Of a stretch of DNA of 64,000 nt, positions 23,138-26,100 are shown in pieces. The stretch lies in assembly GCF_003334405.1 (NCBI RefSeq), contig NZ_QOWM01000013.1; one strand, written 5' to 3'. The position numbers were made by a program. Positions within the stretch are counted from its first letter, which is position 1. The number at the start of each line of letters is the position of its first letter. The DNA is from Escherichia coli. Its GTDB lineage: Bacteria > Pseudomonadota > Gammaproteobacteria > Enterobacterales > Enterobacteriaceae.

Positions 23138-26100
23138 ATCACCGACCAAATTCGAAAAGCCTGCTCAACGAGCAGGCTTTTTTGCATCTGCAGCTCATGA
23201 GGATGAGAACCTCCGGGGGCAGGGAGGTTCGACTCGACGTAGGCCTGATAAGACGCGTCAGCGTCGCATCAGGCAAATGTGCCGGCCATTGTCGGATGCG
23301 GCGCGACCGCCTTATTCGACCTACACGACACACATTTCCCTGCCAAATTTGCGCCCCATATCTCACTATCCATTAACGGATTTGTGACAGAAACCATTGT
23401 CTTTTTTTATATTTGCTTAAATCTTTTTTTGCGTTACTTATGGCTGGCCCTGGCATTTTCCGCTGTGCGTTTTAGCGTTCATGGTATTAATCGCTCAGAT
23501 ATCCACCTTTTCCTCAGATTTTTTTCATTAAATGCATAAAACTTAATCACCAAATGTTGCTAAATATTAAGCTGATTGTTCTGGTCATGTTGGAGTAGCA
23601 CAAATTTCTCTGCTGCAAATAGCTGTTTGAAGTTTTTTTAATCTTTGTTTGTGGATTCTCACCGTTGGTGTAAATCCCGGTTGGCTGTATTGACGTTTTC
23701 ACATTCTGTTGACAGATTGTAGGTCACGAGGGGCATTTTATGGAGGATCCGCACTGTTACACTGATGTTAATTAGTACGGCATCCCCACCTCATAACGTT
23801 GACCCGACCGGGCAAAAAACAAAAAAGGTCAGGCAGCGACAACCCACTGCAAAGGGTTAAAACAACAAACATCACAATTGGAGCAGAATAATGCGTATTT
23901 CCTTGAAAAAGTCAGGGATGCTGAAGCTTGGTCTCAGCCTGGTGGCTATGACCGTCGCAGCAAGTGTTCAGGCTAAAACTCTGGTTTATTGCTCAGAAGG
24001 ATCTCCGGAAGGGTTTAACCCGCAGCTGTTTACCTCCGGCACCACCTATGACGCCTCTTCCGTCCCGCTTTATAACCGTCTGGTTGAATTTAAAATCGGC
24101 ACCACCGAAGTGATCCCGGGCCTCGCTGAAAAGTGGGAAGTCAGCGAAGACGGTAAAACCTATACCTTCCATCTGCGTAAAGGTGTGAAGTGGCACGACA
24201 ATAAAGAATTCAAACCGACGCGTGAACTGAACGCCGATGATGTGGTGTTCTCGTTCGATCGTCAGAAAAACGCGCAAAACCCGTACCATAAAGTTTCTGG
24301 CGGCAGCTACGAATACTTCGAAGGCATGGGCTTGCCAGAGCTGATCAGTGAAGTGAAAAAGGTGGACGACAACACCGTTCAGTTTGTGCTGACTCGCCCG
24401 GAAGCGCCGTTCCTCGCTGACCTGGCAATGGACTTCGCCTCTATTCTGTCAAAAGAATATGCTGATGCGATGATGAAAGCCGGTACACCGGAAAAACTGG
24501 ACCTCAACCCAATCGGAACCGGTCCGTTCCAGTTACAGCAGTATCAAAAAGATTCCCGTATCCGCTACAAAGCGTTTGATGGCTACTGGGGCACCAAACC
24601 GCAGATCGATACGCTGGTTTTCTCTATTACCCCTGACGCTTCCGTGCGTTACGCGAAATTGCAGAAGAATGAATGCCAGGTGATGCCGTACCCGAACCCG
24701 GCAGATATCGCTCGCATGAAGCAGGATAAATCCATCAATCTGATGGAAATGCCGGGGCTGAACGTCGGTTATCTCTCGTATAACGTGCAGAAAAAACCAC
24801 TCGATGACGTGAAAGTTCGCCAGGCTCTGACCTACGCGGTGAACAAAGACGCGATCATCAAAGCGGTTTATCAGGGCGCGGGCGTATCAGCGAAAAACCT
24901 GATCCCGCCAACCATGTGGGGCTATAACGACGACGTTCAGGACTACACCTACGATCCTGAAAAAGCGAAAGCCTTGCTGAAAGAAGCGGGTCTGGAAAAA
25001 GGTTTCTCCATCGACCTGTGGGCGATGCCGGTACAACGTCCGTATAACCCGAACGCTCGCCGCATGGCGGAGATGATTCAGGCAGACTGGGCGAAAGTCG
25101 GCGTGCAGGCCAAAATTGTCACCTACGAATGGGGTGAGTACCTCAAGCGTGCGAAAGATGGCGAGCACCAGACGGTAATGATGGGCTGGACTGGCGATAA
25201 CGGGGATCCGGATAACTTCTTCGCCACCCTGTTCAGCTGCGCCGCCTCTGAACAAGGCTCCAACTACTCAAAATGGTGCTACAAACCGTTTGAAGATCTG
25301 ATTCAACCGGCGCGTGCTACCGACGACCACAATAAACGCGTTGAACTGTACAAACAAGCGCAGGTGGTGATGCACGATCAGGCTCCGGCACTGATCATCG
25401 CTCACTCCACCGTGTTTGAACCGGTACGTAAAGAAGTTAAAGGCTATGTGGTTGATCCATTAGGCAAACATCACTTCGAAAACGTCTCTATCGAATAATT
25501 AAAAGCCATACAAGACTGATGGCAAAGGCAAAAATGCCTGATGCGCTCCGCTTATCAGGCCTACGAAAATTCTGCAATGTATTGAATTTGCACGATTTTG
25601 TAGGCCGGATAAGGCGTTAACGCCGCATCCGGCATAAACAAAGCGCACTTTGTCAACAATCTGTATACCCGGTGGCGCTGTGCCTCTGCGTGCAGCGCCA
25701 TCCGGCAGCAATACTTCATTCCCTGTCCGATAAGGGCGGGAATTGATTTGTGAGCAATACAGACACGCAGTTCCAGGCTGCGGGTCACTATAGAGAATCC
25801 GGGTTATGTTGCAGTTTATTCTCCGACGTTTGGGACTCGTCATCCCCACGTTTATCGGTATTACCCTTCTCACATTTGCCTTTGTCCACATGATCCCGGG
25901 CGATCCGGTGATGATCATGGCGGGCGAACGTGGGATCTCCCCAGAGCGTCACGCGCAGCTGCTGGCTGAACTCGGCTTAGATAAACCGATGTGGCAGCAG
26001 TATCTCCATTACATTTGGGGCGTTATGCATGGCGATCTAGGCATTTCAATGAAAAGCCGCATCCCGGTTTGGGAAGAGTTCGTGCCGCGCTTCCAGGCCA

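What the first reader, a model, noticed from the sequence alone, without database searches (positions are those of the whole stretch)
23856..23878. C/A-rich element immediately upstream of the dppA ribosome-binding site (candidate small-RNA pairing site) at the end of a long untranslated region
About 560 bp separate the REP pair after proK from the dppA start; the final stretch is AAAACAACAAACATCACAATTGGAGCAGAATAATG. C/A-rich tracts just upstream of the Shine-Dalgarno sequence are the characteristic targets of the G/U-rich seed of GcvB-type sRNAs, and dppA is a classical target of that regulon.
Basis: partly seen in the sequence, partly recalled or inferred. Interest (0 to 1): 0.25.

Follow-up and report, generated by a model that had tools for sequence, protein, structure and literature searches.

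The report
Known GcvB pairing site before dppA
The C/A-rich stretch just before the E. coli dppA start codon is real and is the already well-studied site where the small RNA GcvB pairs to shut off translation of the dipeptide-binding protein, so it is a correct but ordinary finding.

Summary
The window is the E. coli eptB-proK-dppABCDF region. The tract is there as described: AAAACAACAAACATCACAA at 23859-23877, then the Shine-Dalgarno GGAG at 23880-23883 and the dppA ATG at 23891.

C/A-rich composition alone is not rare in the window. Three other properties are beyond chance:
- **Pairing.** With authentic E. coli GcvB, the best accessibility-corrected interaction in the leader is 23860-23885 (-31 to -6) with GcvB nt 56-82, the G/U-rich R1 region, at about -20 kcal/mol. 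That is rank 1 of 34 neighbouring gene starts, and 0 of 150 shuffles reach it. Removing the 15-nt ACA segment or R1 in silico abolishes it.
- **Accessibility.** The tract is predicted single-stranded.
- **Conservation.** The site is identical in 5414 of 5426 E. coli genomes and stays C/A-rich and R1-complementary in 80 Enterobacteriaceae loci.

The literature lists dppA as a verified R1 target in E. coli and Salmonella. It also shows that the four ACA motifs act as a translation enhancer that GcvB masks.

Verdict: observation confirmed, interpretation supported, already known, low interest. A side lead is a predicted R1 site in the first codons of yhjV.

The parts
23690..23718 (+). Putative dppA promoter: -35 TTGACG (23690-23695), 17-nt spacer, -10 CAGATT (23713-23718). 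The inferred transcription start is near 23726-23728.
   Evidence: The block is at least 90% conserved in 20 of 22 aligned Enterobacteriaceae leaders. The position agrees with the Salmonella dppA fragment that starts at -163 (PMC2515195). The strict consensus scan did not pick it up because the -10 is weak. The start site is inferred, not measured here.
23726..23890 (+). dppA 5' untranslated leader, about 165 nt. The 5' two thirds are structured and the 3' end is open.
   Evidence: RNA fold of 23726-23920: MFE -50.4 kcal/mol, z -2.3. Positions 23859-23882 are unpaired in both the MFE and the centroid structure. No Rfam family matches 23330-23960 up to E = 1.
23814..23826 (+). A-rich tract AAAAAACAAAAAA (AAN repeats), a candidate Hfq distal-face binding site.
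   Evidence: Several A's of this tract are invariant across 22 genera. It lies in a predicted loop. Hfq binds the dppA leader tightly and recognises A-R-N repeats (PMC4104026; PMC2515195). Assigning Hfq binding to this exact tract is inference.
23859..23877 (+). C/A-rich element AAAACAACAAACATCACAA. The core 15 nt, 23862-23876 (ACAACAAACATCACA), carry four ACA motifs.
   Evidence: It has 90% C+A and no G. The probability that all 19 nt are unpaired is 0.56. The architecture of four ACA in 15 nt next to the SD matches the Salmonella dppA enhancer/target described in PMC3879156.
23860..23885 (+). Predicted duplex with GcvB nt 56-82 (R1 region). It consists of 7 bp (23861-23867 with GcvB nt 76-82), a 13-bp helix (23868-23880 with nt 62-74) and 4 bp over the SD (23881-23884 with nt 57-60).
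   Evidence: Hybridisation -28.4 to -29.5 kcal/mol and total about -20 kcal/mol after opening costs. Deleting 23862-23876 in silico gives -6.6 and deleting GcvB nt 66-89 gives -7.6 kcal/mol.
23880..23883 (+). Shine-Dalgarno GGAG, 7 nt before the ATG.
   Evidence: GGAGCA is invariant in the 22-genus alignment.
23891..25498 (+). dppA coding sequence (periplasmic dipeptide-binding protein, 535 aa).
   Evidence: ORF. Annotation in identical E. coli records.

Best explanation
The tract is the GcvB target site of the E. coli dppA mRNA. It is single-stranded, sits directly 5' of the Shine-Dalgarno sequence, and carries four ACA motifs that boost translation initiation. When GcvB is made (glycine or nutrient-rich growth, via GcvA), Hfq brings the G/U-rich R1 region of GcvB onto the tract. 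The duplex of about 24 bp covers the enhancer and the Shine-Dalgarno sequence, so the 30S subunit cannot bind and DppA synthesis falls. Shown here: the sequence, its accessibility, its specific complementarity to authentic E. coli GcvB R1, and its conservation. Taken from papers: GcvB- and R1-dependent repression, Hfq binding, and enhancer activity. Inferred: the exact duplex boundaries in E. coli, the transcription start, and the Hfq contact site at 23814-23826.
For: The identity of the locus as E. coli dppA comes. The GcvB query is 100% identical to a site between gcvA and ygdI that matches in all 5426 E. coli genomes and scores 199 bits against Rfam RF00022. The best accessibility-corrected interaction in the whole leader is 23860-23885 with GcvB nt 56-82, about -20 kcal/mol. 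dppA ranks 1 of 34 gene starts in the neighbourhood, and 0 of 150 dinucleotide shuffles reach its energy, z -4.5. In-silico deletion of the 15-nt ACA segment or of R1 drops the best energy to -6.6 and -7.6 kcal/mol, which is the shuffle background. The tract is unpaired in the MFE and centroid structures. The 51-nt segment 23846-23896 is at least 99% identical in 5414 of 5426 genomes, whereas only 1603 of 5441 records reach 99% over the 801-bp region. In 80 Enterobacteriaceae loci there are 39 distinct tract sequences, with mean C+A 85%, mean 4 ACA motifs, and a longest gap-free helix with R1 of at least 9 in every one. Mean duplex energy is -27.7 kcal/mol, against -16.4 for a control segment of the same leaders. 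The most conserved mRNA core, ATCACA, faces the part of R1 that is conserved in the Rfam consensus, GUUgUGAUG. Literature: dppA is listed as an R1 target, 'Verified' in E. coli and Salmonella, with thousands of RIL-seq chimeras (PMC9299463). R1 pairing was demonstrated with a delta-R1 mutant and footprinting, and an EHEC dppA leader fusion responds to the anti-GcvB RNA AgvB (PMC4104026). Deleting the 15-nt four-ACA segment lowers dppA-lacZ by 96%, and GcvB positions 84-88 lie outside the dppA pairing, which fits the predicted boundary at nt 82-83 (PMC3879156).
Against: Nothing contradicts it. Four limits remain. A naive hybridisation scan without accessibility or position is not specific; the site is only about 14th of 25,590 windows. 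C/A richness by itself is common. The primary footprinting paper (Sharma et al. 2007) and the E. coli mutational paper (Pulvermacher et al. 2008) could not be read here, so published duplex coordinates were not compared base by base. GcvB sequences of the other genera were not fetched, so co-variation between the two partners was not tested.
Confidence: 0.95

Rival explanations
1. The tract is only a translation enhancer (ACA motifs recognised by the initiating ribosome, possibly through protein S1), and its complementarity to GcvB has no regulatory consequence.
For: In Salmonella, deleting or randomising the four ACA motifs cuts dppA-lacZ expression 20- to over 100-fold, independently of predicted structure (PMC3879156). 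ACA count is conserved across genera, mean 4 and minimum 2.
Against: GcvB-dependent, R1-dependent repression of dppA is reported as verified in both species. The enhancer paper itself treats the enhancer as the thing GcvB silences. Complementarity extends beyond the ACA motifs into the SD. The enhancer role is therefore complementary to the pairing role, not a replacement for it.
Confidence: 0.03
2. The tract is chance low-complexity sequence in an AT-rich intergenic region and has no function.
For: Tracts of at least 18/20 C+A are not rare: 19 in the window against 12.8 +/- 3.6 expected. Raw duplex energies as low as this one occur elsewhere.
Against: The site is invariant in 5414 of 5426 E. 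coli genomes while the surrounding region varies. It is conserved in composition, position and R1 complementarity in 80 loci of many genera. It ranks first among 34 gene starts, and no shuffle does as well.
Confidence: 0.01
3. The tract is mainly the Hfq-binding site of the leader, or a shared landing pad for other G/U-rich sRNAs, rather than a GcvB-specific site.
For: Hfq binds the dppA leader with high affinity and competes with the AgvB RNA for the distal face. Hfq-bound cDNAs cluster on the dppA 5' end.
Against: The distal face prefers A-R-N repeats. The tract is A-C-A rich, and C is not a purine. A better (AAN)n candidate lies at 23814-23826 and is conserved. No other sRNA was tested here, and none was named for dppA in the papers read.
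Confidence: 0.08

Closest known systems
GcvB R1 target site of Salmonella Typhimurium dppA mRNA (Sharma et al. 2007, as cited in PMC4104026 and PMC3879156)
   Same: It is the same gene with the same position next to the SD and the same architecture of four ACA motifs in 15 nt. Salmonella enterica subspecies in the locus set differ from E. coli by 1-2 nt in the tract (L007 ACAACATACATCACA, L010 ACAATATACATCACA, against ACAACAAACATCACA). The partner region is the same (R1), and the pairing ends before GcvB nt 84.
   Different: One or two base differences in the tract. E. coli GcvB differs from Salmonella GcvB by about 10 nt (PMC9299463).
E. coli dppA-GcvB regulation (Urbanowski et al. 2000; Pulvermacher et al. 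2008, 2009; Miyakoshi et al. 2022, PMC9299463)
   Same: This is the identical locus. The window's 51-nt site is identical to that of 5414 of 5426 complete E. coli genomes. dppA is listed as an R1 target verified in E. coli.
   Different: None found. The window's strain only lacks one 168-bp repeat unit far upstream, next to proK, outside the leader.
yifK and gltI C/A-rich enhancer/target elements (PMC3879156; PMC9988348 discussion)
   Same: These are also C/A- or ACA-rich single-stranded elements upstream of the SD that enhance translation and are masked by GcvB R1.
   Different: They are different genes, and the distance to the SD differs. In gltI the site lies well upstream of the RBS, whereas in dppA the predicted duplex also covers the SD.

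Membership tests
GcvB R1 target sites (C/A-rich elements of amino-acid/peptide transport mRNAs) | C/A-rich, single-stranded sequence in or just upstream of the ribosome-binding site | tested here: met
   The tract has 90% C+A and no G, and ends 2 nt before GGAG. It is unpaired in the MFE and centroid structures, and P(all 19 nt unpaired) is 0.56.
GcvB R1 target sites (C/A-rich elements of amino-acid/peptide transport mRNAs) | Extended complementarity to the G/U-rich R1 region of the cognate GcvB, better than background | tested here: met
   Pairing of 24 bp with nt 57-82, about -20 kcal/mol after accessibility correction. It ranks 1 of 34 gene starts, and 0 of 150 shuffles reach it. The interaction is lost on in-silico deletion of the tract or of R1.
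GcvB R1 target sites (C/A-rich elements of amino-acid/peptide transport mRNAs) | Match to the reported consensus R1 target motif CACAACA (quoted in PMC4104026) | tested here: inconclusive
   There is no exact CACAACA in the tract; the best matches are 6 of 7 (AACAACA at 23861-23867). The motif is a statistical consensus rather than a requirement, and dppA pairs through a much longer duplex (calls it 'the long R1 pairing').
GcvB R1 target sites (C/A-rich elements of amino-acid/peptide transport mRNAs) | GcvB- and R1-dependent post-transcriptional repression in vivo | not testable with these tools
   Literature only: verified in E. coli and Salmonella (PMC9299463 Table 1; PMC4104026).
GcvB R1 target sites (C/A-rich elements of amino-acid/peptide transport mRNAs) | Hfq association of the mRNA leader | not testable with these tools
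   Literature: Hfq binds the dppA 5' 166 nt about 10-fold more tightly than it binds GcvB; Hfq coIP cDNAs cluster on the leader. A conserved (AAN)n tract at 23814-23826 was seen here.
GcvB R1 target sites (C/A-rich elements of amino-acid/peptide transport mRNAs) | Conservation of the site among enterobacteria that carry GcvB | tested here: met
   Across 80 loci there are 39 distinct tracts, and every one has an R1 helix of at least 9 bp. The GcvB sequences of those genomes themselves were not fetched.
ACA-motif translation enhancers (Yang et al. 2014) | Cluster of ACA trinucleotides immediately upstream of the SD | tested here: met
   Four ACA in 23862-23876; mean of 4 across orthologous leaders.
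ACA-motif translation enhancers (Yang et al. 2014) | Loss of translation when the ACA motifs are replaced | not testable with these tools
   Shown for Salmonella dppA-lacZ: 96% loss on deletion, and down to 0.5-5% of wild type on randomisation (PMC3879156). Not shown for the E. coli sequence in the papers read.

The most novel reading that the evidence does not exclude
The least ordinary reading still open is that the dppA tract serves more than GcvB. It could be a shared hub where other G/U-rich RNAs, such as further sRNAs or sponge/anti-sRNA mimics like AgvB, compete, or where ribosomal protein S1 reads the ACA motifs. GcvB would then be one of several inputs. In the same window a second, apparently undescribed R1-type site sits in the first codons of yhjV, which would extend the regulon to another transporter next to the dpp operon.
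Probability: 0.15. Interest if true: 0.3.

Novelty: already known. Interest (0 to 1): 0.08.

Why it matters
It matters only as a positive control. A reader working from raw sequence correctly recognised a textbook sRNA target site, and the tool-based check reproduces what about 25 years of work on GcvB and dppA established. The site is a good calibration case. It shows that composition and raw duplex energy are not discriminating, whereas accessibility, position relative to the start codon and conservation are. No open question becomes testable through it.

Tried and rejected
- **Unrestricted RNAduplex of the whole leader against whole GcvB.** It gave a meaningless end-to-end 'duplex' of -93.5 kcal/mol, so I replaced it with a windowed, accessibility-corrected search.
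- **Raw hybridisation scan of all 30-mers of the window against R1.** It is not specific; many coding-region windows score as well. I rejected it as a test.
- **C/A richness as a statistic.** It is not significantly enriched in the window.
- **Rfam search of the intergenic region and leader at E <= 1.** No family matched, so there is no described cis-regulatory RNA there.
- **Consensus promoter/terminator scan.** It reported only an upstream GTGACA-18-TATATT match at 23384-23413 and missed the conserved block at 23690-23718. I do not rely on it.
- **An 11-codon upstream ORF (ATG 23740, preceded by GAGGGG).** I considered it and rejected it as a conserved feature, because the ATG is lost in several genera.
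- **Primary papers.** Sharma et al. 2007 and Pulvermacher et al. 2009 could not be opened. The supplements of PMC9299463 are not held.

Full report
**What is in the sequence**

- The window around the finding reads ...GCAAAGGGTTAAAACAACAAACATCACAATTGGAGCAGAATAATGCGT....
- The C/A tract AAAACAACAAACATCACAA occupies 23859-23877.
- GGAG lies at 23880-23883, and the ATG at 23891 opens a 535-codon ORF, 23891-25498.
- tRNA-Pro(CGG) is at 23072-23148, and a REP-type element (Rfam naRNA4) is at 23242-23321.
- An 801-bp query across the region matches E. coli chromosomes at 100% identity, where the ORF is annotated dppA and the neighbours are eptB and tRNA-Pro.

**Is it more than chance?**

- Composition alone is not. 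Tracts with at least 18 of 20 C+A occur 19 times on the two strands of the window, against 12.8 +/- 3.6 in Markov-1 simulations.
- A raw duplex-energy scan of every 30-mer against GcvB R1 puts this site only about 14th of 25,590 windows.
- The site stands out once position, accessibility and conservation are taken into account, as the next two sections show.

**Pairing test**

- I wrote the E. coli GcvB sequence from memory and then authenticated it. It is 100% identical to a site that matches in all 5426 complete E. coli genomes, between gcvA and ygdI. It matches Rfam RF00022 end to end at 199 bits.
- I used a windowed duplex search corrected for the cost of opening both RNAs, in the style of IntaRNA and built with ViennaRNA. 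The best interaction anywhere in the leader plus early coding region is mRNA 23860-23885 (-31 to -6) with GcvB nt 56-82. Hybridisation is -28.4 to -29.5 kcal/mol and the net energy is about -20 kcal/mol.
- The duplex has three parts:
  - 7 bp (23861-23867 with GcvB nt 76-82);
  - a 13-bp helix (23868-23880 with nt 62-74);
  - 4 bp over the Shine-Dalgarno sequence (23881-23884 with nt 57-60).
- The last 4 bp require opening the base of GcvB stem-loop 1. Without them the energy is still -17.4 kcal/mol.
- The same calculation on -80..+30 of 34 annotated gene starts in the neighbourhood ranks dppA first. None of 150 dinucleotide-preserving shuffles of the dppA region reaches its energy (mean -9.9, sd 2.2, z -4.5).
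- Deleting the 15-nt segment 23862-23876 in silico drops the best interaction to -6.6 kcal/mol. Deleting GcvB nt 66-89 (R1) drops it to -7.6 kcal/mol. Both values are background.
- The tract is unpaired in the MFE and centroid folds of the leader, and the probability that all 19 nt are open is 0.56.

**Conservation**

- The 51-nt segment 23846-23896 is at least 99% identical in 5414 of 5426 E. coli genomes. Over the 801-bp region, only 1603 of 5441 records reach 99%.
- A scan of species-representative genomes with DppA returned 80 Enterobacteriaceae loci. All carry a C/A-rich tract abutting (T)GGAGCAGAA-N-ATG.
- Among the 39 distinct tract sequences:
  - mean C+A is 85%;
  - the mean ACA count is 4 and the minimum is 2;
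  - the longest gap-free helix with E. coli R1 is at least 9 in every case;
  - mean duplex energy is -27.7 kcal/mol, against -16.4 for a control segment of the same leaders.
- The most conserved core, ATCACA, faces the part of R1 that is conserved in the Rfam consensus, GUUgUGAUG.
- I could not fetch GcvB from those genomes, so partner co-variation is untested.

**The leader**

- The 22-genus alignment shows a nearly invariant block: CTGTATTGACGTTTTCACATTCTGTTGACAGATTGTAGG...GAGGGGCATTT.
- In it, TTGACG (23690-23695), a 17-nt spacer and CAGATT (23713-23718) form a plausible promoter.
- The Salmonella dppA leader fragment used in Hfq studies starts at -163, and Hfq-bound cDNAs begin at the +1 site (PMC2515195).
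- Together these place the E. coli 5' end near 23726-23728, giving a 5' UTR of about 165 nt.
- A conserved A-rich tract (AAAAAACAAAAAA, 23814-23826) in a predicted loop is a plausible Hfq distal-face site. This is inference and from the A-R-N rule in PMC4104026.
- No Rfam family matches the leader.

**Comparison with the literature**

- Miyakoshi et al. (PMC9299463) list dppA as a GcvB target using seed R1, 'Verified' in both E. coli and Salmonella. The evidence includes thousands of RIL-seq chimeras plus CLASH and MAPS support.
- Tree et al. (PMC4104026) state that the direct R1-dppA interaction was rigorously shown with a delta-R1 mutant and footprinting. They also report that a 4-nt mutation does not break 'the long R1 pairing', that Hfq binds the 5' 166 nt of dppA about tenfold better than it binds GcvB, and that an EHEC dppA leader fusion responds to the anti-GcvB RNA AgvB.
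- Yang et al. (PMC3879156) show that the Salmonella dppA target contains four ACA motifs within 15 nt next to the SD. Deleting these 15 nt lowers expression by 96%, and randomising the ACAs can reduce it to 0.5-5% of wild type. GcvB positions 84-88 lie outside the dppA pairing.
- The E. coli segment ACAACAAACATCACA has the same four-ACA, 15-nt layout. It differs by one base from Salmonella enterica subsp. diarizonae. My predicted duplex ends at GcvB nt 82-83, which is consistent with their statement.
- A later paper summarises that GcvB represses gltI and dppA 'by masking CA-rich' translation enhancers (PMC9988348).

**Mechanism**

- The tract is a single-stranded ACA-rich enhancer that promotes 30S binding at the dppA start.
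- GcvB, induced through GcvA when glycine and nutrients are plentiful and assisted by Hfq, pairs through R1 with the tract and the SD and blocks initiation.
- Shown here: sequence, accessibility, specific complementarity and conservation.
- Taken from papers: repression, R1 and Hfq dependence, and enhancer activity.
- Inferred: exact duplex ends, transcription start and Hfq contact site.

**Rivals**

- Enhancer-only is really a complementary role rather than an alternative.
- Chance is refuted by conservation.
- A role as the principal Hfq site is less likely, because the tract is A-C-A rich rather than A-R-N, and a better conserved A-rich tract lies upstream.

**Verdict**

The element is already known, so interest is low.

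**Side observations**

- The second-best GcvB interaction among the 34 gene starts is in codons 2-7 of yhjV, a putative amino-acid transporter next to the dpp operon. The sequence AUGCAGCACAACACACUAUCGA pairs with R1 nt 61-82 at -16.6 kcal/mol, z -3.1, with 1 of 150 shuffles as good. It contains the published CACAACA consensus. No paper in the searchable library links yhjV with GcvB regulation or with Hfq, but supplementary interactome tables could not be searched.
- The window's strain lacks one 168-bp repeat unit after proK.
- An 11-nt copy of the R1 sequence lies upstream of dctA.

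Noticed in passing
window 31012-31033 (- strand), start of yhjV: The first codons of yhjV (putative aromatic/amino-acid transporter next to dppF) read AUGCAGCACAACACACUAUCGA and are predicted to pair with GcvB R1 nt 61-82. The energy is -16.6 kcal/mol after accessibility correction, rank 2 of 34 gene starts, z -3.1, with 1 of 150 shuffles as good. The sequence contains the published R1 consensus CACAACA. No paper in the library links yhjV to GcvB regulation or to Hfq, but supplementary interactome tables were not searchable.
   Followed up: partly
window 47732-47756 (+ strand), upstream of the 428-codon ORF at 47814 (dctA by position; my assignment): A G/U-rich stretch, UGUGAUGUUGUCUGGGUGUUAUUUU, shares 11 consecutive nt (UGUGAUGUUGU) with GcvB R1. 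It would therefore be complementary to the dppA tract. It lies about 60-80 nt before the start codon. Its significance is unknown and it may be chance.
   Followed up: no
window 23148/23149 (after proK): Compared with E. coli ATCC 8739, the window lacks exactly one 168-bp unit directly after tRNA-Pro. The unit consists of the terminator hairpin, an RtT-like segment and a repeated copy of the tRNA 3' end. The rest of the 742-bp proK-dppA spacer is identical. PGAP annotates an 'RtT sRNA' there in ATCC 8739. In the window no RtT match reached Rfam's gathering score; only a naRNA4/REP match at 23242-23321 did.
   Followed up: partly
window 23685-23795: The 5' part of the dppA leader and its promoter form a strikingly conserved block across Enterobacteriaceae, far more conserved than the middle of the leader. 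It includes GAGGGGCAUUU(U/C)AUGGAG, which in E. coli opens an 11-codon upstream ORF (ATG 23740, MEDPHCYTDVN*). The ATG is not conserved (lost in Enterobacter, Kosakonia, Superficieibacter), so conservation more likely reflects promoter or regulator sites, or the predicted stem GAGG.../...CCUC.
   Followed up: partly
window 23814-23826: A conserved A-rich tract, AAAAAACAAAAAA (AAN repeats), sits in a predicted loop about 65-75 nt upstream of the ATG. It is a plausible Hfq distal-face site of the dppA leader.
   Followed up: partly
window 25557-25599 (- strand), between dppA and dppB: An Rfam match to ES036 (CssrF) sRNA, 56.7 bits, lies on the opposite strand in the dppA-dppB spacer. Other Rfam matches in the window are the cspA thermoregulator (11448-11875, -), sok (9610-9749, +) and rdlD (31395-31460, -).
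   Followed up: no
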